Source of the DNA: a virus
Lineage: Duplodnaviria > Heunggongvirae > Uroviricota > Caudoviricetes
DNA length: 64,000 nucleotides
Reading direction: 5' to 3' (one strand)
IMG/VR virus record: IMGVR_UViG_3300037466_000352
A program made the position numbers and the translations under genes. This document shows, one piece after another, positions 5,914-62,040 of the stretch (position 1 is the first letter of the stretch; every line of letters starts with the position of its first letter). Below the pieces are notes generated by a model, which saw only the letters and a list, made by a program, of their open reading frames with translations, searched no databases and was not told the origin of the DNA.

Positions 5914-6056
5914 GTTGTTGACTTTGAGTTACGGGACACCGGGTGTTGTTGTACATAGTTGTTTCATATGTCTGCGCTGCGCGCATCTCGCTTCGCGAGA
6001 ACAACTTGTTCGTGGATTAGTAAATAACCATGAACCCCGAAAACCATTATACCAAG

Positions 6057-6084
6057 CTCCCAAAGTTGTGTCAAGCTAAATATT
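6057..6084 (+). promoter_or_regulatory. CTCCCAAAGTTGT box followed by AGCTAAATATT (putative late promoter of the 6114 gene)
   Basis: AGCTAAATATT is identical to the 11-mer upstream of the endolysin gene (52573). It lies about 31 nt upstream of the ATG. Confidence 0.5.
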
Positions 6085-34348: not shown

Positions 34349-34376
34349 TTGACAAACGCACACACGTCTGTATAAT
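34349..34376 (+). promoter_or_regulatory. Promoter TTGACA-N16-TATAAT with a roughly 100-nt leader
   Basis: TTGACAAACGCACACACGTCTGTATAAT. The leader contains a direct repeat ATGTAGATTTCT / ATGTAGTTTCT. Confidence 0.55.
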
Positions 34377-34483
34377 TCGTTCTCAGGTTGTGACGCGAAA
34401 CGAAAAGCAAACGACCTGAACTTTAACCAACCATGTAGATTTCTACTCTATGTAGTTTCTGCACTTTGAAGAGGACCTTCATC

Positions 34484-34987
34484 ATGAAAAAGACCATCAT
34501 CGCACTCGCACTCGCACTCGCAATCTCGGCAACGGCTGCTTTCGCAGGCAACGGTAACGGCAACCAGGGCAACGGTGTCGGCAATCAAGGCGCTGCGATC
34601 AGCGGTTCGGCCTCGGCCTACCAAGGCACGGTCGTCGGCTCGGTTGGCAGCGTGTCGCAAGGCAACGCCGTGACCTCGGCGGAAGTCGTCGGCAACGGTG
34701 CTTCGTATCAGACGGCACAAAACGTGACGGGTGGCACGGCCACGGTCGGCGGTTCGATCAGCGCAAACGGCGCAACGGTCGGCACGCAGACGACGCAATA
34801 CAGCAACTCGGTCGTGACCGGCAAGACGGTCGGAAACGCACCTGCCATGAACGGCAACAGCATCGTCAACGGCGGCAGCGCGTTCGGCCAGACGCAGACC
34901 TCGGCCACGGGCACGGCGACGTTCGGTTCGGGCGCAATCGGCGGCACGCTGTCGATCCAAGGCATCGGCGCAATCGGCGCTCTGTAA
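34484..34987 (+). CDS. Secreted Gly/Asn/Ser/Thr-rich repetitive protein (Sec signal peptide); GC-rich gene
   Basis: Signal peptide MKKTIIALALALAISATAAFA. Low-complexity G/N/Q/S/T/V repeats. Local GC is much higher than the surrounding phage sequence. Confidence 0.55.
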   Translation: MKKTIIALALALAISATAAFAGNGNGNQGNGVGNQGAAISGSASAYQGTVVGSVGSVSQGNAVTSAEVVGNGASYQTAQNVTGGTATVGGSISANGATVGTQTTQYSNSVVTGKTVGNAPAMNGNSIVNGGSAFGQTQTSATGTATFGSGAIGGTLSIQGIGAIGAL

Positions 34988-35081
34988 TCTGATCGCCGAT
35001 TGAGTCTGGGGTCTGTCGGTCGTCAAATACGGTTGGCAGACCCTTGAGTATCCACTACATGAACTACCGGAGTATCAACAC

Positions 35082-35612
35082 ATGAAGAAAATCCTCGCCG
35101 CAGTCCTGTTCACATTCGCAACCGCATCTGCCTTCGCGCAAAGTAGCGCATCCACGAACACGACGACGAATTCGACATCCGGCGCATTGAACCAGGGCGT
35201 CAGTCAAGGCATCACGTTCAACAGTCCGCCCGAAGTTCACTACAGCGGCAGCTACACGGTACGTTCGACAGGCAACGCCTCGATCAGCGGATTTGCCGGT
35301 TCGTTCTCGTCCGATTACTGTGGCGGCACGGCTGGTGTCGCGGTCGGCGGTCCTGGCTTCGCAGTGAGTGGCGGTGCGCCCAAGATCGATCACGGTTGTA
35401 CGATGTTGCGTGCGTTCGAACGCATCCAACAAGCAGCGGCAGCGGACCCCGCACATGCCACGCAGTTGCGTGCAGCAGCGCTCGATGTTCTGGCCGACAT
35501 CGACCCCGCAGTCAAGGCAGCGCTTGTCAGCCACGGCCTGATCGAGAAGCCCAATGATAAGGTGACGACCAATGAACAAGGCCAGAAGGTGTACGTCACG
35601 GCGCAACCCTGA
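35082..35612 (+). CDS. Secreted Ser/Thr/Gly-rich protein (Sec signal peptide); GC-rich gene
   Basis: Signal peptide MKKILAAVLFTFATASAFAQ, two Cys. GC-rich. Confidence 0.55.
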   Translation: MKKILAAVLFTFATASAFAQSSASTNTTTNSTSGALNQGVSQGITFNSPPEVHYSGSYTVRSTGNASISGFAGSFSSDYCGGTAGVAVGGPGFAVSGGAPKIDHGCTMLRAFERIQQAAAADPAHATQLRAAALDVLADIDPAVKAALVSHGLIEKPNDKVTTNEQGQKVYVTAQP

Positions 35613-35617
35613 TTCGG

Positions 35618-35666
35618 TTGACACAAATTCCCAGACTTGATATAATGTGCGAATTCAAGTCTGGGA
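35618..35666 (+). promoter_or_regulatory. Conserved promoter TTGACA-N17-TATAAT with an 11-bp inverted repeat (CCCAGACTTGA / TCAAGTCTGGG) flanking the -10 and sequestering the SD
   Basis: TTGACACAAATTCCCAGACTTGATATAATGTGCGAATTCAAGTCTGGGAG. The 3' arm overlaps the SD GGGAG of the 35674 gene. Confidence 0.6.
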
Positions 35667-35673
35667 GTCAACG

Positions 35674-35841
35674 ATGAAGAAGAGCAAGAAAAAGAAGAAC
35701 TTCAATAATCACAAAAGCAACACAATTGTGATCGAGTTCGATTCTCCGAAGCCACGCATTGGTGTGATCTTCACCAAGGTCGTGTCTAACAAGAACCTGA
35801 AGAAGCACAAGATCAAGCACAAACACAAGGTTGTAGATTGA
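35674..35841 (+). CDS. Small Lys-rich basic protein (55 aa)
   Basis: ATG 35674 with RBS gggag. The track used the upstream GTG. Confidence 0.5.
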   Translation: MKKSKKKKNFNNHKSNTIVIEFDSPKPRIGVIFTKVVSNKNLKKHKIKHKHKVVD

Positions 35842-36209
35842 AACCTCTGATTCACGCAAAGATTTCGGTGAAGACCTATGGCGGCAAAGTCGAAGATTAT
35901 CTGCCTATTCATAACTTCATCGATAGCAGTAAGTCTGCTCACCCAGACATCCGCCATCGGGCAATTCTGCATTCAGCTTTTGGGTGCTTTATCGTCGAGC
36001 ATGTATTCGGGACCTACCTGACTAACAGCGATGGCAAAGATGTATCCGTTCGCGACATCGCGGAAGAACACATCATACAAGACCTCGGGTTTATCCCGAC
36101 GATGGAACAGTACTTAAACAACATGCAGATTCAACCGTGGATGTCTGGTACTGAAAAGAGAAACAATAAAAGCGAACGGAAGTTCATTTCACTCGAAGAT
36201 GCTGACTAA
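35838..36209 (+). CDS. Hypothetical protein
   Basis: 123 aa ORF. Confidence 0.5.
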   Translation: MKPLIHAKISVKTYGGKVEDYLPIHNFIDSSKSAHPDIRHRAILHSAFGCFIVEHVFGTYLTNSDGKDVSVRDIAEEHIIQDLGFIPTMEQYLNNMQIQPWMSGTEKRNNKSERKFISLEDAD

Positions 36210-36952: not shown

Positions 36953-37327
36953 ATGAGTGCGGAAGAAGAGAAGAAAGTCAGCAACACGAAGCTGGTAGTC
37001 ATTGACACCAAGACTCTCGTCGCTAAGTCGTTCGAAGGAAATTTCCCATGTGGCGAAGCCCACTTGCCGAACCCGAACGGCGAAGACGAGTACACGGCTG
37101 TCGAAATCACGGAACAGTTGAACGACTTCCTGAAAGCTGCTGACGGCGCTCGATACCGCGCTATTGCCGAAGCCGACAAGAAGGCCGCAATCGGAAAGAA
37201 GCTGGTTGAACTGACCAACGAATACGAAGGTTGGTTTGATCGTCTGGTTCCCGAAGAAGAATTCGATTCGTTCGGTTTTTTGAAAGCAACAAAACAGGTA
37301 GATAGTGAAGATGTCAAAACAATATGA
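36953..37327 (+). CDS. Hypothetical protein
   Basis: 124 aa ORF. Confidence 0.5.
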   Translation: MSAEEEKKVSNTKLVVIDTKTLVAKSFEGNFPCGEAHLPNPNGEDEYTAVEITEQLNDFLKAADGARYRAIAEADKKAAIGKKLVELTNEYEGWFDRLVPEEEFDSFGFLKATKQVDSEDVKTI

Positions 37328-38402
37328 TGTGGTGGTGTATCGCGGTCGGTTCCAAGGTTTCCATAACGCGCACCTTCAAACGATCCTCATGGGACTGAAG
37401 CTGGCGAAGAAAGTCATCATTGTGATTGGTAGTGCGAACGAACCGCGCACCTACTATCGCAATCCGTTCTTTGAGAACGAACGAATCGAGATGATTCGTG
37501 GCGCACTCGAAGAGCACTTCCGTCATGAAGACGTTTCGTTCGTATCTGTCGAAGATCACCCCGACGACGAACATTGGGCGTTCATGGTTCGCAAGGCAGT
37601 TCACGATCACATTCGACATGTATTGGATATCAAAGACCCATACGTGGCGCAGATCGGTTACAAGAAGGACGAGAATTGCGTACGCGATGTTTCACTCTTT
37701 CCGACGTGGGAATACGTCAATACGCCTCAATTCGAACCGCTCGACGCGACACAAGTCCGCGACATCTTCTTCAGCAAGCGTCCGTTGGGATTCCTTCGTG
37801 GCGTGTGTCCTGAATCTGTCATCCAATACCTGAAGGGTTTCCGCACAACGGAAGACTTCGCGAACATGATGGCTGAAAAGGAATACTGCGACAAATACAA
37901 GAAGCAGTTCGAACATCTCGAATATGCTCCCACGTTTGTCACTGGCGACAATATCGCATTCCAAGACGATACGGTGTTGCTGGTCAAGCGCAAGAACTTT
38001 CCCGGTAAGGGTCTGTGGGCGTGGCCTGCTGGCTTCTTCAATGCCGCTGATCGGGTGTCGAAAAGTGGTGAAATCGTGAAGGCCGACAAGTCTGTTTTCG
38101 ATTGCGCAGTTCGCGAACTCAGTGAAGAGACTAATGCCGGTGTCACGAAGGAACAGCTTCAAGAAGCACTGGTCGGCGAACAAATATTTGACGCAGAAGG
38201 CCGCGATCCGCGTGGACGAATCGTCACACATGCGTTCGTCTATAACTTCGACGACCAAGAAGTGTTCGCAGTCGAAGCCGCCGACGACGCGGAAGAAGTT
38301 CGACGCTTCCATATCTCGGAAGTGAATCGCCGCATGATGTACGCCGATCACTACAACATGTTCCTGCTGGCGCTCGATGCGTACTGCGACTCCAAGTTTT
38401 AA
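37305..38402 (+). CDS. nadM: Bifunctional NMN adenylyltransferase / Nudix ADP-ribose pyrophosphatase (NadM-Nudix)
   Basis: N-terminal GRFQGFHNAH (HxGH). C-terminal Nudix box REL-EETNAG. Confidence 0.85.
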   Translation: MKMSKQYDVVVYRGRFQGFHNAHLQTILMGLKLAKKVIIVIGSANEPRTYYRNPFFENERIEMIRGALEEHFRHEDVSFVSVEDHPDDEHWAFMVRKAVHDHIRHVLDIKDPYVAQIGYKKDENCVRDVSLFPTWEYVNTPQFEPLDATQVRDIFFSKRPLGFLRGVCPESVIQYLKGFRTTEDFANMMAEKEYCDKYKKQFEHLEYAPTFVTGDNIAFQDDTVLLVKRKNFPGKGLWAWPAGFFNAADRVSKSGEIVKADKSVFDCAVRELSEETNAGVTKEQLQEALVGEQIFDAEGRDPRGRIVTHAFVYNFDDQEVFAVEAADDAEEVRRFHISEVNRRMMYADHYNMFLLALDAYCDSKF

Positions 38403-38414
38403 GCCAACCACTAC

Positions 38415-39785
38415 ATGATGAACAACATAAACATCAACATTGCACTAGAACAAAACTTCATCCTCGAATCTGACTCGTACAAGTTCAGCCACATTCCCGA
38501 AATCTACCCCGAAGGCGCTGAAGCCCTGCACTCGTATCTGTCGGCCCGCGTGAAGGGTCAACGTGTGGTCCAGTTCGGCCTTCAGATGTGGATCAAGAAG
38601 AAGCTGTTGGCCCCGATCACCCGCGAGATGGTGGACGAAGCTGAAGACTTCATCAACAAGCACATCGGCCCGAACGCGTTCAACCGTCCTTTCTGGGAAC
38701 ACATCCTGAAGAAGTATGGCGGGTTCATTCCGCTGACTATCCGTGGTCTTCCCGAAGGCACGGTCACGAACAGCTACGACACGCTGATTACGGTCGAATG
38801 CGATGACCCGGTGGTGTTTCCGCTGGCGCAACACATCGAAGCTTCGCTGCAATCGGACATGTGGTACAGCACGACCATTGCGACCAACGACCTCGAAAAC
38901 TATGAAGTCGCCAAATCGCACTTCGACCTGTATTCGGACCAACCGTTCCTTCTGCCGTTCATGCTTCACGACTTCGGCGCACGTGGTGTGACCTGTGAAG
39001 AACAACGCCAGATTGGCGGTGCTGCGCACTTGCTGTTCTTCCAAGGTTCGGACACGATCAGCGGCATCCGTGCAGCGAATCTGTTCTATGGTTGCGAAAT
39101 GGCCGCGTATTCGGTTCGTGCCACGGAACATAGCATCCAGTGCGCCTACGGCCCGGAAGCCCAAGAAGCGTACATCTCGCGCGTTCTGACCGCACATGCG
39201 AAACCGGGCAACATCGTGTCGCTGGTGCTGGACGGATACAACGTCTGGCGCGAGTCAGAATTGCTGTGTACGAAGTTCAAGCAACAGATCATCGACAGTG
39301 GTGCGAAGATCGTATTCCGACCTGACTCGGGTGACATGTTCGAAGTGATTCCGCGTCTGCTGGAAATGCAAGCTAACGCGTTCGGCTTCACGGTCAACTC
39401 GAAGGGCAAGAAGGTCATCAACAACGTCGGCGTGATCCAAGGGGACGGTATCGATAAGACGACCTTCATGCTGCTGATGCAAAAGGTCGTGGCCCTCGGC
39501 TATGCCCCAGAATGCGTCGTGATGGGTTCCGGTGGCGGTCTTTTGCAGAAGTGCAACCGCGATACCCTGAAGTTCGCACAGAAGGCCGCAGCGGTCAAGA
39601 TCAACGGTCAGTGGGTTTCGATCTTCAAAGACCCGATCACCGATCCGGGTAAGAAGTCGAAGACCGGCATCCAAGATGATCCGCGATTCATCACGTTCTA
39701 CAACGTCGATGATGGTCTGCTGGTGGACGAATCGTTCGACGTGATCCGCGAACGTGCGTTGGCTGGCGCAGTGATCCGCAAATAA
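38415..39785 (+). CDS. nadV: Nicotinamide phosphoribosyltransferase (NAMPT/NadV)
   Basis: 456 aa. N-terminal DSYKFSH. Typical NAMPT length and motifs. Confidence 0.9.
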   Translation: MMNNININIALEQNFILESDSYKFSHIPEIYPEGAEALHSYLSARVKGQRVVQFGLQMWIKKKLLAPITREMVDEAEDFINKHIGPNAFNRPFWEHILKKYGGFIPLTIRGLPEGTVTNSYDTLITVECDDPVVFPLAQHIEASLQSDMWYSTTIATNDLENYEVAKSHFDLYSDQPFLLPFMLHDFGARGVTCEEQRQIGGAAHLLFFQGSDTISGIRAANLFYGCEMAAYSVRATEHSIQCAYGPEAQEAYISRVLTAHAKPGNIVSLVLDGYNVWRESELLCTKFKQQIIDSGAKIVFRPDSGDMFEVIPRLLEMQANAFGFTVNSKGKKVINNVGVIQGDGIDKTTFMLLMQKVVALGYAPECVVMGSGGGLLQKCNRDTLKFAQKAAAVKINGQWVSIFKDPITDPGKKSKTGIQDDPRFITFYNVDDGLLVDESFDVIRERALAGAVIRK

Positions 39786-40245: not shown

Positions 40246-40274
40246 TTGACACGAATTCCCAAGATCGGTATAAT
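40246..40274 (+). promoter_or_regulatory. Conserved promoter TTGACA-N17-TATAAT with an ATTCCCA box
   Basis: TTGACACGAATTCCCAAGATCGGTATAAT. Confidence 0.65.
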
Positions 40275-47218: not shown

Positions 47219-47271
47219 TTGACAAACATTCCCAGACATGTATAATCCATTCCGTCAACAACGCATCTGGG
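47219..47271 (+). promoter_or_regulatory. Conserved promoter TTGACA-N16-TATAAT with an inverted repeat (CCCAGACATG / CATCTGGG) flanking the -10 and covering the SD
   Basis: TTGACAAACATTCCCAGACATGTATAAT. The 3' arm overlaps the SD GGGAG of the 47282 gene. Confidence 0.6.
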
Positions 47272-60123: not shown

Positions 60124-62040
60124 TTAGAACAGCACCGTATTCATCATCTGCCTGTCGAAGTAGGATTCGCGGGCGCGTGGTTCGGCTTTCACCGGCACTA
60201 CCTTTGGACCCGATTGTTGTGGCTGTGAGATGTTCTGTTGAACCACAACCTTCGGCGCGTCGTGATTCGCGCTATGGTTCGCAACTTGCTGTACGTCATG
60301 TGTCGGTGCTGGCTTCACATCGACCTTGCCATGTGGGCCGCCCATCCATTCCGGCATCCACGACTTATCGATCTTGTTCCAGTTCTCATAGACACCATCT
60401 GCGGCCCCAGCAATACCGCCCACAGCACCGCCGACCATCGTCCCTACACCCGGAATGAACGAACCGACTGCGGCCCCCGTAGCGCCCCAATCTGCCGCTT
60501 TACGTGCGACATCTGCACCGATGGCTAGTTGGTCATGCCCGGTCTTCTCAAGTTCGTCGTGTGCGTATCCGAGTCCCTTGTCTGCTGCGTATCCAACGAG
60601 CGCCGCTGCACCGCCCTTCAGTAGTCCCTTTCCAAGACCCTTCCCTAACTTCGCAAGCTTCGAAAGTGAACGCACGCCCTTCTTTGCACCAAACAAGGCA
60701 GGCAGAAGGCTTGTCGCATCACCGATTACTTCGGATGTTATCGACGAATCGGAACCTTCTTTTGCTGCTGCGTCACCTTGCGGATTGTCATCGATCTTCA
60801 ACGTAGGATCGGCTGACCGAGGACCCACGTCGTTATCAGGAAGGTCCGACTTCGGCTTGAACGCATCCGTGATAGTTGGCTTCGGTACGAACGTCGGATA
60901 CACATCAACCGCACCACGAACTGCCGATGCAATCGGCGATTCTTGCGTCTTCAGTGGCGCATGTGGATTGCGCGGTTTAACCTTGATCGGCGATTCGACT
61001 TCACGATGTTCAACGTCTTGTACAGCGAGTTCCTTGTGCGCGATCTTCGGTGCAGGAAGAAGATGCGGTTCGTGATACTCAAGCGCCTTCTGGTCAAGCG
61101 GTACGTGTGGCTTTGGATCAACTAGCGCACCTGTCGGGCCATGCGGACCCGGCAACTGTGGATGCAACTCTGCGCCAGACGATGAAGGTCCAGGCAACTC
61201 TGGATTGATCGGAACTGCACTGCGACCTTTCGGACCATCGAGACGATCTTGCATGTATCGCGGCGGCTGTTCGTCTTCGGCCTTCTTGACCATCTTCACG
61301 ATCAAGTTTTCGACATGAAGGTTCTCGATCTTCGATGGGAATCCACCCGAACCCTTTCCTTCACCCGAACCGCCCGCGATCTGTGATGCCATCGCGTTTG
61401 CTTTGTCCTTCTCTGCTTCGCCCGTGATCTGTTCACCCGCCTCTCGAATCAGCTTTTCGGCAGTGCCTTGGTTCTGTAGTTCGTGAAGCGGATTCAGTAC
61501 ACCCGCACCGTTCTTTTCAAGACCCGCCAGCTTTCTGAACAAAGGGCTTTCAAGATCGTCTTGTGTCGGCTTGAAGAACTTGGCTGCACGTTGCGAGAAC
61601 TCTTGACGAAGAACACCGCCTTTCTTCTTTGCATTCGGATCGGTGTGCTTCATTCCGATAGATGCAAGATGTTCCAGTTCTCCCTTGGCAGGATGGTCGC
61701 CATCGATTTCGTTCAGGCGAACGACGGCTGCTTTGAATTCCTTGTGAAGTGCATCAAAGTCCTTGGCGTCGGCGCGACGAAGCTTGTAGAAGTTCTCCGT
61801 GATACCACGGAACACTTCACGTTGTTCATCGGTGGCCGTCTTCATCCATTCTTCTTGATCCTTCACCGAGTCAGTGAATTGACGATACGCTTCGTCGATC
61901 TGCTGAACGAATTTGTCATCCTTGCCGTTATTCTTCGACACCTGATTGCGACGAAGCAACGCTCCGATCTTCCCGATGTAGGCATTCATGTCCTCATTCG
62001 AGATTCGAGATGTCTGTAATGATGGTTGCATCGCCGCCAT
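60124..62040 (-). CDS. Large hypothetical protein (638 aa) with a Pro-rich linker and a C-terminal glycine-zipper segment
   Basis: Long minus-strand ORF. GxxxG repeats in GVGTMVGGAVGGIAGAADG. The N-terminal half is helical. Confidence 0.65.
   Translation of the reverse strand: MAAMQPSLQTSRISNEDMNAYIGKIGALLRRNQVSKNNGKDDKFVQQIDEAYRQFTDSVKDQEEWMKTATDEQREVFRGITENFYKLRRADAKDFDALHKEFKAAVVRLNEIDGDHPAKGELEHLASIGMKHTDPNAKKKGGVLRQEFSQRAAKFFKPTQDDLESPLFRKLAGLEKNGAGVLNPLHELQNQGTAEKLIREAGEQITGEAEKDKANAMASQIAGGSGEGKGSGGFPSKIENLHVENLIVKMVKKAEDEQPPRYMQDRLDGPKGRSAVPINPELPGPSSSGAELHPQLPGPHGPTGALVDPKPHVPLDQKALEYHEPHLLPAPKIAHKELAVQDVEHREVESPIKVKPRNPHAPLKTQESPIASAVRGAVDVYPTFVPKPTITDAFKPKSDLPDNDVGPRSADPTLKIDDNPQGDAAAKEGSDSSITSEVIGDATSLLPALFGAKKGVRSLSKLAKLGKGLGKGLLKGGAAALVGYAADKGLGYAHDELEKTGHDQLAIGADVARKAADWGATGAAVGSFIPGVGTMVGGAVGGIAGAADGVYENWNKIDKSWMPEWMGGPHGKVDVKPAPTHDVQQVANHSANHDAPKVVVQQNISQPQQSGPKVVPVKAEPRARESYFDRQMMNTVLF

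What the first reader, a model, noticed from the sequence alone, without database searches (positions are those of the whole stretch)
34349..35612. Two adjacent GC-rich genes encoding Sec-secreted Gly/Asn/Ser/Thr low-complexity proteins, compositionally atypical of the phage
Both ORFs start with classic signal peptides (MKKTIIALALALAISATAAFA and MKKILAAVLFTFATASAFAQ). They encode repetitive G/N/Q/S/T/V-rich sequences reminiscent of curlin-like or amyloid repeats (…QGNGVGNQGAA…SxxQGxx…). Local GC is so high that long spurious ORFs open on the opposite strand (34448..35026 and 35064..35624), unlike the rest of the window. They have their own TTGACA-N16-TATAAT promoter and a roughly 100-nt structured leader. 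This looks like a horizontally acquired moron for secreted or cell-surface proteins, possibly affecting host surface, biofilm or superinfection.
Basis: seen in the sequence. Interest (0 to 1): 0.65.

Follow-up and report, generated by a model that had tools for sequence, protein, structure and literature searches.

The report
Exported two-protein phage cassette, function unknown
Two neighbouring early genes of a T4-like phage encode a conserved pair of exported proteins that also travels between unrelated phages and one bacterial chromosome; it matches no described family, it is not curli-like, and its high GC comes mostly from its amino-acid make-up rather than recent foreign origin.

Summary
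ORF A (34484-34987) and ORF B (35082-35612) are real plus-strand genes with Sec-type signal peptides. They sit in the GC maximum of the window, behind a perfect sigma-70 promoter and a structured leader of about 100 nt.

- **Conserved module:** A followed by B recurs in syntenic ~170-kb T4-like phage contigs, in the early-left operons of Caballeronia and Paraburkholderia prophages, in Achromobacter phage AXY1 (gp32/gp33), and as a stand-alone pair in the Achromobacter xylosoxidans chromosome. The B family has 622 clusters at 50% identity.
- **No described relatives:** neither protein matches Pfam, NCBIfam, PADLOC or PDB sequences, and no functionally annotated PHROG.
- **GC excess:** this is largely intrinsic. 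The cassette is 1-9 points richer than its surroundings in all 11 loci. Amino-acid composition explains more than half of the excess, and ORF A uses the phage's own preferred codons more strongly than any reference gene.
- **Age:** divergence from related phages equals that of neighbouring genes, so the cassette is not a recent arrival.
- **Not curli:** there are no internal repeats and no curlin similarity.

My best guess, at low confidence, is an abundant uncharged beta-rich subunit (A) plus a disulfide-loop/helical partner (B) made early to remodel or shield the envelope, for example by superinfection exclusion.

The parts
34349..34376 (+). Perfect sigma-70 promoter TTGACA-N16-TATAAT driving the A-B unit
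   Evidence: It is one of 5 perfect matches in the window (0.02 expected). The -35, the -10 and the first ~60 nt transcribed are nearly invariant in related phage contigs L002, L004 and L005.
34383..34483 (+). 5' leader of about 100 nt. It has a 5'-proximal stem-loop (about 34383-34419), a second hairpin, and the Shine-Dalgarno AGAGGA at 34470-34475.
   Evidence: MFE -27.4 kcal/mol, z = -3.45, with 1 of 200 shuffles folding as well. The homologous leader in L002 gives z = -3.62. It is conserved in alignment A5. The other perfect promoters in the window have leaders of only about 25-35 nt. No Rfam match.
34484..34987 (+). ORF A. It is a 167-aa precursor with a signal peptide (residues 1-21, nt 34484-34546). 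The mature protein is 146 aa, almost uncharged and rich in Gly/Ala/Thr/Ser/Val/Asn/Gln, and is predicted to be all-beta.
   Evidence: family of 22 homologues at 36-58% identity, including Achromobacter phage AXY1 gp32. AF2 gives four strands of about 20 residues at low confidence, pLDDT 48.5. Plus-frame purifying selection. Strongest use of the window's preferred codons.
35008..35044 (+). GC-rich hairpin (16 bp) between A and B
   Evidence: A strong GC-rich stem-loop occupies the A-B spacer in all 7 loci folded (window, L002, L001, L006, L008, L010, L011), although the spacer sequences are not alignable. In L011 it is followed by a T run.
35082..35612 (+). ORF B, a 176-aa precursor. In order it has: a signal peptide (residues 1-19, nt 35082-35138); an S/T/N/Q-rich linker; the conserved FAGSFSSDYCGGTAG...PKID..C loop between Cys80 (35319-35321) and Cys106 (35397-35399); and a three-helix domain (residues 104-150, nt 35391-35531).
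   Evidence: 36 homologues. (622 clusters at E<=1e-3). (two near-invariant Cys, spaced 26 in 73 of 80). (pLDDT 88-92 over the helices, below 50 over residues 18-99). (purifying selection).
35613..35678 (+). Strong hairpin directly after the stop codon of B. It closes the A-B unit. It also contains the next promoter (35618-35646) and the Shine-Dalgarno of the next small ORF.
   Evidence: -29 kcal/mol, z = -5.08, with 0 of 200 shuffles folding as well.

Best explanation
The locus is an autonomous early transcription unit of a T4-like phage. It carries a conserved two-gene module for two Sec-exported proteins.

**Shown or directly readable from the sequence**
- A consensus sigma-70 promoter, which should be used by unmodified host RNA polymerase as soon as the DNA enters the cell.
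- A conserved, structured leader of about 100 nt.
- ORF A, with the strongest codon bias in the window.
- A conserved-in-position GC hairpin, then ORF B, then a terminal hairpin.
- Cleavable signal peptides on both proteins and no lipobox.

**Inferred**
- A is made in large excess over B. The 5' stem-loop would stabilise the message, and the intercistronic hairpin would act as a partial terminator or 3'-end barrier.
- Both proteins reach the periplasm.
- Cys80 and Cys106 of B form a disulfide that closes a 25-residue Gly-rich loop.
- B's loop and helical domain nucleates, anchors or caps an assembly of the uncharged, small-residue, beta-rich protein A.

**Speculative (my commitment)**
- This assembly changes the envelope of the freshly infected cell so that further phage attack is blunted. 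That could mean superinfection exclusion, protection against lysis from without, or masking of a receptor or entry route.
- The role would be comparable to T4 Imm/Sp or T5 Llp, but with unrelated proteins.

I put about 0.85 on 'conserved exported two-protein envelope module expressed early'. I put only about 0.25-0.3 on the exclusion or shielding function.
For: **Real genes with conserved pairing.** A lies immediately upstream of B in every close locus:
- the window;
- three lineages of ~170-kb phage contigs;
- Caballeronia and Paraburkholderia prophages;
- Achromobacter phage AXY1;
- IMG/VR contigs.

The pairing also holds beside distant B-like genes. In three distant loci the order is reversed, with the Gly/Ser-rich partner downstream. 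No third gene is shared across contexts.

**Export.** Signal peptides are conserved family-wide.

**Early, strong expression.** The promoter is perfect, the leader is structured and conserved, and A has the highest preferred-codon score of 52 genes.

**Different amounts of A and B.** A hairpin sits in the A-B spacer in 7 of 7 loci without sequence conservation.

**Lytic-cycle role.**
- The window is the replication and nucleotide-metabolism region of a T4-like phage.
- In prophages the pair lies in the early-left operon, between the repressor and integrase next to RecT/YqaJ genes, with no promoter of its own detected.
- In AXY1 it lies among early nuclease genes.

**Mobility.** Movement among unrelated phages is typical of host-interaction or exclusion cassettes.

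**Precedent.** A periplasmic low-complexity effector that blocks phage DNA entry exists in the bacterial HXS system (PMC13128918). This is an analogy only.
Against: - The structure models are poor (A pLDDT 48.5, B 60.0), so the proposed assembly is not demonstrated.
- No A-B interaction was tested.
- The stand-alone chromosomal copy in Achromobacter xylosoxidans, flanked by ordinary cellular genes, shows the pair can serve a cell without a phage. That fits exclusion or defence, but it fits a purely cellular envelope function equally well.
- Localisation beyond the periplasm cannot be read from the sequence.
Confidence: 0.3

Rival explanations
1. Anti-defence or host-takeover factor acting in the envelope. 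The exported pair would neutralise a periplasmic or envelope-located host function, such as an entry-blocking defence, a periplasmic nuclease, an envelope-stress sensor or a tailocin or bacteriocin target. It would not act against other phages.
For: The features fit as well as for the main explanation: immediate-early expression, export, and mobility among phages of Burkholderiales. Envelope-located anti-entry defences exist (PMC13128918), so counter-measures are plausible.
Against: No similarity to known anti-defence proteins, and no PADLOC-related neighbour. The stand-alone copy in a bacterial chromosome is harder to explain for an anti-defence gene. An abundant, uncharged, beta-rich protein looks structural rather than inhibitory.
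Confidence: 0.15
2. Membrane-active or pore-forming protein with a partner. A would oligomerise through long Gly/Ser/Thr-rich beta-hairpins, or through glycine-zipper-like segments, into a ring or pore in the outer or inner membrane. B would act as its chaperone, regulator or immunity protein, making the pair toxin/immunity-like.
For: - The AF2 model of A is four strands of about 20 residues forming long hairpins.
- Its best Foldseek hits in the PDB are all stems of beta-pore-forming toxins, phage tail knobs or flagellar rings.
- The conserved loop of B contains GxxxGxxxG, and one B cluster was labelled 'YcfJ' by IMG.
- Two-gene toxin/immunity cassettes are mobile.
Against: - The Foldseek hits are not significant (best E = 0.028, TM <= 0.21), and the model is of low confidence.
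- The predicted strands show no period-2 amphipathicity (p = 0.07-0.64).
- There are very few aromatic or large hydrophobic residues, and no glycine-zipper Pfam hit.
- Strong early expression of a pore former would harm a lytic phage that still needs about a full cycle of host energy.
Confidence: 0.12
3. One reading: a surface fibre or functional amyloid, curli-like, with a major subunit and a nucleator. It would change host surface properties or biofilm formation as a lysogenic-conversion trait.
For: - The composition is G/N/Q/S/T-rich and both proteins are exported.
- The gene order is major subunit then partner, with a hairpin between them, as in many fibre operons.
- The N-terminal GNGNGNQGNG stretch superficially resembles the N22 segment of CsgA (my recollection, not tested).
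Against: - No Curlin_rpt hit, no internal repeats, no similarity to CsgA, and A and B are not paralogues.
- No outer-membrane export component (CsgG/FapF-like) is encoded in any of the loci examined.
- Expression is immediate-early in a T4-like lytic phage and within the lytic early operon of prophages.
Confidence: 0.08
4. Artefact. The plus-strand ORFs would be chance reading frames in a GC-rich stretch, and the real genes, if any, would be the long minus-strand ORFs.
For: The minus-strand ORFs (192 and 186 aa) are slightly longer than the plus-strand ones.
Against: - Plus-frame third-position substitutions are in excess, with abundant synonymous changes, in five pairwise comparisons.
- Plus-strand protein families are conserved at 36-75% identity across phages and bacteria.
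- There are conserved signal peptides, Shine-Dalgarno sequences and a promoter on the plus strand.
Confidence: 0.01

Closest known systems
T4 Imm/Sp, T5 Llp, phi80/T1 Cor, P22 SieA (phage superinfection-exclusion or receptor-masking envelope proteins; from established knowledge)
   Same: They are small phage-encoded proteins targeted to the envelope. They are made early or constitutively, are not needed for virion building, and are often carried as accessory cassettes. The early consensus promoter and signal peptides here fit that life-style.
   Different: No sequence or fold similarity was found. Those are single membrane proteins or lipoproteins. This is a soluble-type, non-lipoprotein pair, with an abundant uncharged beta-rich component and a disulfide-loop/helical partner. 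No exclusion phenotype has been shown.
Curli CsgA/CsgB (and other functional amyloids such as FapC/FapB)
   Same: Two adjacent genes for Sec-exported proteins of about 150-180 aa that are rich in G/N/Q/S/T. One is presumably the major component.
   Different: There are no curlin repeats, no internal repeats and no A/B paralogy. No CsgG/E/F or FapF export partners are present.
Phage 'morons' (an extra transcription unit with its own promoter and terminator inserted between conserved genes, as described for lambdoid phages; from established knowledge)
   Same: In this phage the pair is an independent unit bounded by a promoter and a strong hairpin, and it is dispensable-looking cargo that also occurs in unrelated phages.
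   Different: It is present at the same position in all related phage contigs found, so no empty site is known. The GC offset is intrinsic, not foreign. Prophage copies show no promoter of their own. Expression is early-lytic rather than from the prophage.
HXS anti-phage system effector HxsA (PMC13128918)
   Same: It is a periplasmic, low-complexity protein proposed to act as a barrier to incoming phage DNA. It is a functional precedent for the mechanism I favour.
   Different: [quoted passage not shown] None of these features is present here.
Achromobacter phage AXY1 gp32/gp33, phiAxp-2 homologues, and PHROG 20531 (all 'hypothetical protein')
   Same: These are true homologues. AXY1 gp32 scores E = 5e-30 against the A profile. 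AXY1 gp33 matches the B profile with hhalign probability 99.9%. The phiAxp-2 protein is the only meaningful BFVD fold hit.
   Different: None has any annotation or experimental characterisation.

Membership tests
Curli subunits (CsgA/CsgB, Pfam Curlin_rpt PF07012) | Matches the curlin repeat model | tested here: not met
   No Pfam hit at E<=1 for window A or B. None at E<=0.1 for any of the 23 A-family members.
Curli subunits (CsgA/CsgB, Pfam Curlin_rpt PF07012) | Five imperfect internal strand-loop-strand repeats | tested here: not met
   Profile comparisons between segments of A give probabilities of 12% or less. TRF finds only a 6-nt x3.8 repeat and a 21-nt x2.2 repeat.
Curli subunits (CsgA/CsgB, Pfam Curlin_rpt PF07012) | The major subunit and the nucleator are paralogues | tested here: not met
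   hhalign of the A family against the B family aligns only the 19-21 signal-peptide residues.
Curli subunits (CsgA/CsgB, Pfam Curlin_rpt PF07012) | A dedicated outer-membrane export apparatus (CsgG/E/F) is encoded nearby or in the host | tested here: inconclusive
   No such gene lies within 6-9 kb in any locus with gene and Pfam tables. Host genomes were not surveyed.
Sec-dependent, signal-peptidase-I secreted proteins | A basic n-region, a hydrophobic h-region of 10-12 residues, and small residues at -3 and -1 (AxA) | tested here: met
   A is MKK/TIIALALALAIS/ATAAFA|G and B is MKK/ILAAVLFTFA/TASAFA|Q. The pattern is conserved in alignments A2 and A3, and 146 of 150 representatives have the hydrophobic stretch. 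SignalP itself was not available.
Bacterial lipoproteins (the kind that Llp, Cor and o-spanins belong to) | A lipobox L-[AS]-[GA]-C at the cleavage site | tested here: not met
   Neither signal peptide contains a Cys. Only 2 of 150 B-family representatives have a lipobox-like string.
Phage moron | Own promoter and terminator | tested here: met
   In the window there is a perfect promoter at 34349-34376 and a terminal hairpin at 35613-35678 with z = -5.08, though it has no T run. This is not met in the prophage copies, where no promoter-like site was found.
Phage moron | Inserted between genes that are adjacent in related phages (an empty site exists) | tested here: not met
   Both related phage lineages found (L002-L005 and L023/L024) carry the cassette at the same position between the same neighbours. 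No relative lacking it was found.
Phage moron | Nucleotide composition foreign to the carrier genome | tested here: inconclusive
   - GC is the window maximum.
- 58.8% (A) and 58.1% (B) are already expected from amino-acid composition with the window's codon usage.
- A over-uses the window's own preferred codons.
- The same positive offset is seen in all 11 loci.
- A residual GC3 excess in A (0.777 observed against 0.601 expected) remains.
Superinfection-exclusion proteins | Homology to a known Sie family (Imm, Sp, SieA/B, Llp, Cor, and others) | tested here: not met
   No PHROG with a function, and no Pfam, NCBIfam or PADLOC hit.
Superinfection-exclusion proteins | Expression blocks secondary infection | not testable with these tools
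   This needs plating, adsorption and DNA-entry assays.
Beta-pore-forming or oligomeric beta-barrel proteins | Long amphipathic beta-hairpins (period-2 hydrophobicity) and structural similarity to known stems | tested here: not met
   Alternation scores for the four predicted strands do not differ from shuffles (p = 0.07-0.64). The best Foldseek hit has E = 0.028 and TM <= 0.21, on a model with pLDDT 48.5.
Glycine-zipper outer-membrane proteins (YcfJ/SlyB/Rick_17kDa_Anti type) | Matches the glycine-zipper domain models | tested here: not met
   No Pfam hit in 150 B-family or 23 A-family members. The 'YcfJ' label on one cluster comes from IMG only. That cluster's extra C-terminal region is a low-complexity tail.

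The most novel reading that the evidence does not exclude
The A/B pair would be the founding example of a new, widespread envelope system with at least 622 sequence clusters. It is so far carried mainly by phages of Burkholderiales and relatives. An abundant, almost charge-free, small-residue beta protein would be polymerised or organised in the periplasm by a disulfide-loop/helical partner into a physical barrier or ring. That structure would control what crosses the envelope: phage DNA, lysozymes or bacteriocins. It would be made within minutes of infection by lytic phages and captured by some bacteria as a stand-alone gene pair.
Probability: 0.2. Interest if true: 0.7.

Novelty: new variant of a known kind. 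Interest (0 to 1): 0.45.

Why it matters
Phage accessory cassettes that act on the cell envelope decide which phages can share a host. They are therefore relevant to phage therapy cocktails against Achromobacter and the Burkholderia group. This pair is conserved, mobile, strongly expressed and large as a family (622 clusters at 50% identity), yet it is entirely unannotated, without even a DUF.

It has a cultivable representative, Achromobacter phage AXY1 gp32/gp33, so a function could be tested directly.

The case also offers a methodological caution. A GC peak over a gene rich in Gly/Ala/Ser/Thr is not evidence of foreign origin. Here the same offset follows the cassette through genomes from 43 to 66% GC.

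Tried and rejected
- **DNA similarity to known phages.** blastn of the cassette found nothing, and blastn of 8 kb around it matched only the DUF6915 gene.
- **tblastn of B against phages and plasmids.** No match.
- **First word-indexed search with A alone.** It found nothing, probably because of low complexity. It worked once a 4-sequence profile was used.
- **Family libraries.** Pfam, PHROGs, NCBIfam and PADLOC were run on the window proteins, on 150 B representatives, on 23 A members and on distant locus proteins. Nothing meaningful was found.
- **PDB sequence profiles.** Only chance hits.
- **Structure.**
  - AF2 models were of low confidence.
  - BFVD found only an uncharacterised homologue.
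  - Foldseek on A gave non-significant hits to beta-pore stems. I treat these as a lead only.
  - The afdb50 library was unavailable.
- **Rfam on the leader and spacers.** Nothing.
- **Internal repeats and CsgA comparison.** Negative.
- **A third conserved gene.** None across contexts.
- **Chromosomal copy as a remnant of an AXY1-like phage.** The neighbouring RNase T gene is unrelated to AXY1's.
- **The search for related loci with the full B alignment.** It failed for lack of a conserved stretch. A narrower alignment gave 1 genome locus and 10 viral loci.
- **Literature searches.** They returned no description of these proteins.
- **'Phage_DsbA' gene near the cassette in L002.** I considered using it as support for periplasmic disulfide formation and rejected it. 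As I recall, that Pfam family is the T4 dsDNA-binding transcription factor, not an oxidoreductase.
Full report
**1. What is at the coordinates**

The window is part of a large T4-like phage.
- Its long ORFs match a DnaB/gp41-type helicase, primase, ribonucleotide reductase, DNA ligase, NAMPT and an NMNAT-Nudix protein.
- The helicase is closest (about 55% identity) to gp41 of T4-like cyanophages.
- No closely related phage is in the GenBank phage collection.

The finding covers a promoter, a leader and two plus-strand ORFs: A (34484-34987, 167 aa) and B (35082-35612, 176 aa).
- Both start with typical Sec/signal-peptidase-I signals, MKKTIIALALALAISATAAFA|G and MKKILAAVLFTFATASAFA|Q, with no lipobox.
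- The region holds the GC maximum of the whole 64-kb window. The 504-nt window at 34501 is 65.1% GC, against a mean of 51.3% and SD of 2.9%.
- Homologue comparisons show that substitutions pile up at the third codon position of the plus frame, with many synonymous changes. Differences at positions 1, 2 and 3 were 34, 22 and 59 for A (window against L002), 38, 29 and 94 for B, and 32, 38 and 87 for A between two prophages.
- So the plus-strand genes are real and under purifying selection, and the antisense ORFs are a by-product of the composition.

**2. Transcription-unit anatomy**

- **Promoter.** TTGACA-N16-TATAAT at 34349-34376 is one of five perfect matches in the window, where 0.02 are expected by chance. 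It therefore belongs to the phage's own class of strong early promoters rather than being an imported signal.
- **Leader.**
  - The other perfect promoters sit 25-35 nt from their start codons. This one is followed by a leader of about 100 nt.
  - The leader folds significantly better than shuffled sequence (z = -3.45). It begins with a 5'-proximal stem-loop.
  - It is almost invariant in the related phage contigs, where z = -3.62. It matches no Rfam family.
- **A-B spacer.** A 16-bp GC-rich hairpin lies at 35008-35044. A comparable hairpin occupies the A-B spacer in all seven loci folded, although the spacers cannot be aligned.
- **3' end.** Directly after the stop codon of B there is a very stable hairpin at 35613-35678 (-29 kcal/mol, z = -5.08).
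- **Inference.** Together with the codon data in section 4, this suggests that A is made in large amounts and B in smaller amounts. This is an inference and has not been measured.

**3. The two proteins form a conserved, mobile pair**

B has 36 homologues in the word-indexed search. A full HMM search against 1.84 billion cluster representatives gave 622 clusters at E<=1e-3 and 165 at E<=1e-10. A was missed as a single query, but a small profile recovered 22 homologues at 36-58% identity.

In every locus carrying a close B, an A homologue lies immediately upstream:
- Three lineages of ~170-kb phage contigs syntenic with the window (L002-L005 and L023/L024).
- Prophages in Caballeronia sp. LZ035 and Paraburkholderia saeva. 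There the pair lies in the early-left operon, between an S24 repressor and the integrase next to YqaJ/RecT genes.
- Achromobacter phage AXY1 (Casjensviridae), as gp32/gp33 among early nuclease genes. hhalign of gp33 against the B profile gives 99.9% probability.
- Several IMG/VR contigs, in some of which the pair lies between an HNH endonuclease and packaging genes.
- The Achromobacter xylosoxidans chromosome, as a stand-alone pair. It is flanked by ordinary cellular genes: a chemoreceptor, GST, an AraC regulator, an MscK-like channel and LysR regulators. The neighbouring RNase T gene is unrelated to the one in AXY1.

Distant B-like genes also have a secreted Gly/Ser/Thr-rich gene of about 160 aa next to them. 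It is usually upstream. In three loci the order is reversed. No third gene is shared between contexts. The module is therefore A plus B and nothing else.

**4. Is it compositionally foreign and recently acquired?**

Mostly not.
- **Amino-acid composition.** Back-translating A and B with the codon usage of 51 other genes in the window predicts 58.8% and 58.1% GC. The observed values are 64.9% and 60.0%. More than half of the excess over 51% therefore comes from the amino-acid composition: Gly, Ala, Ser and Thr all have G or C at codon position 2.
- **Codon choice.** The remaining excess in A comes from synonymous choices (GC3 0.777 against 0.601 expected). Those choices (GGC, TCG, ACG, GTC, AAC) are the window's own preferred codons. 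A's preferred-codon score (0.33) exceeds that of every reference gene (maximum 0.287). B (0.186) is within the normal range.
- **Same offset everywhere.** The cassette is richer in GC than its surroundings in all 11 loci examined. The excess is 3-9 points in ten of them and about 1 point in the 66%-GC Achromobacter chromosome. Backgrounds run from 43% to 66% GC. The offset is a property of the genes, and their absolute GC tracks each carrier genome.
- **Vertical inheritance in this lineage.** The cassette is at the same position in the related ~170-kb phages. A is 73% and 51% identical, and B 71% and 46%, against flanking genes at 36-96% and 28-86%. It has been inherited vertically in this lineage for as long as its neighbours.

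Horizontal mobility is real on a longer time scale, because the pair occurs in unrelated phages and in a bacterium. The GC peak is not evidence for it.

**5. What the proteins look like**

*Protein A*
- Mature A (146 aa) is 88% G/A/S/T/N/Q/V with one acidic and one basic residue.
- The whole family is nearly uncharged, with 0-6 acidic and 0-4 basic residues.
- It is nevertheless conserved position by position, with 18 columns at 90% identity or more. It is therefore not a mere low-complexity spacer.
- AF2 predicts four strands of about 20 residues arranged as hairpins, but at pLDDT 48.5.
- There are no internal repeats, no curlin or other Pfam match, and no similarity to CsgA.
- The predicted strands show no period-2 amphipathicity.
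- Foldseek hits of the weak model are all to stems of beta-pore-forming toxins, phage tail knobs or flagellar rings. They are not significant (best E = 0.028). I keep this only as a lead.

*Protein B*
- A variable S/T/N/Q-rich linker is followed by the conserved motif FAGSFSSDYCGGTAG...GGAPKID..C.
- Its two Cys are nearly invariant in the family and spaced 26 residues apart in 73 of 80 cases.
- Most family members have a second Cys pair further on.
- Next comes a confidently predicted three-helix domain (pLDDT 88-92), and in many relatives a long disordered tail.

*Both*
- A and B are not paralogues.

**6. Most likely mechanism, and how sure I am**

- **Shown.** It is an early, strongly signalled transcription unit for two exported proteins that always travel together.
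- **Inferred.** A is the abundant component and B the minor one. Both act in the periplasm or at a membrane face. B carries a periplasmic disulfide. B organises or caps an assembly of A.
- **Speculative.** The assembly protects the newly infected cell from further attack through the envelope, for example by superinfection exclusion, protection against lysis from without, or receptor masking.

The arguments for this are circumstantial:
- expression is immediate-early in a T4-like phage;
- the pair sits in the lytic early operon of prophages, without a promoter of its own;
- cassettes of this kind are typically mobile among phages that share hosts;
- a periplasmic entry barrier has a precedent in the bacterial HXS system (PMC13128918).

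I give about 0.85 to the structural description and 0.25-0.3 to the function. The amyloid idea failed every test that could be run here.

**7. Comparison with known systems, and novelty**

The module behaves like a phage accessory envelope cassette, which is a known kind. Its two protein families are undescribed, and the pair architecture has no characterised counterpart that I could find: an uncharged beta-rich subunit followed by a Cys-loop/helical partner, with a hairpin between the genes. I therefore rate it a new variant of a known kind, of moderate interest. It is not a member of the curli, lipoprotein-exclusion or glycine-zipper families; the defining features I could test were not met. 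It satisfies the 'moron' definition only in part.

**8. Limits**

- No experiment and no multimer modelling were possible.
- The hosts of the window phage and of the metagenomic relatives are unknown.
- The promoter and terminator scans are simple consensus matches.
- Statements about T4 Imm/Sp, T5 Llp, Cor and the T4 DsbA protein rest on general knowledge, not on tool results.

Noticed in passing
window 6046-6074 (-), 35618-35646 (+), 40246-40274 (+), 47219-47246 (+): There are four further perfect TTGACA-N16/17-TATAAT promoters (5 in all, 0.02 expected). Three of them share a spacer element, ATTCCCA(G/A)(A/G)A, that is absent from the promoter in front of ORF A. This may mark a sub-class of early promoters or a binding site.
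   Followed up: partly
window 35613-35678: The promoter at 35618-35646 lies inside the 5' arm and loop of a very stable hairpin (z = -5.08). The 3' arm of that hairpin covers the Shine-Dalgarno (GGGAG) of the next small ORF. Read-through transcripts from A-B would therefore hide that ribosome-binding site, whereas transcripts started inside the hairpin would not. As I recall, the same arrangement is described for T4 genes e, soc and 49. A weaker CCCAGA/TCTGGG pairing exists at the 47219 promoter.
   Followed up: partly
window 35674-35841: A small, very basic ORF (55 aa, Lys-rich, sequence ...KKHKIKHKHKVVD) has its own perfect promoter. It is 82-90% identical in the two related phage lineages, far more conserved than its neighbours A and B. 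It has no family match.
   Followed up: partly
window 35838-36209: A DUF6915 / phrog_8143 protein is 93% identical to its counterpart in L002. It is the only part of an 8-kb query with DNA-level similarity to known phages (Stenotrophomonas phage DLP_6 and Synechococcus phages B3 and B23).
   Followed up: no
window 37305-38402 and 38415-39785: An adjacent NMNAT-Nudix fusion and a NAMPT gene form an NAD+ salvage pair. The pair is conserved at 73-87% identity in the related ~170-kb phage contigs.
   Followed up: no
L020 8474-9702 (Achromobacter xylosoxidans JBMIXG010000002.1): A stand-alone chromosomal copy of the A-B pair lies between an ABM-domain gene and an MscK-like mechanosensitive channel gene. 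No phage genes are nearby. It is preceded by a 524-nt intergenic region with no consensus promoter.
   Followed up: partly
L016 1984-3645, L017 3360-4943, L018 5650-7377 (IMG/VR contigs): Distant B-like proteins (270-350 aa) carry greatly expanded Q/G/S/N-rich N-terminal regions. They are followed, not preceded, by a secreted Gly/Ser/Ala-rich ORF of 128-160 aa. This is the same pairing in reversed gene order.
   Followed up: partly
window 60124-62040 (-): The longest ORF in the window (638 aa, minus strand, in a region of reversed AT skew) has no PHROG match at E<=1e-5.
   Followed up: no
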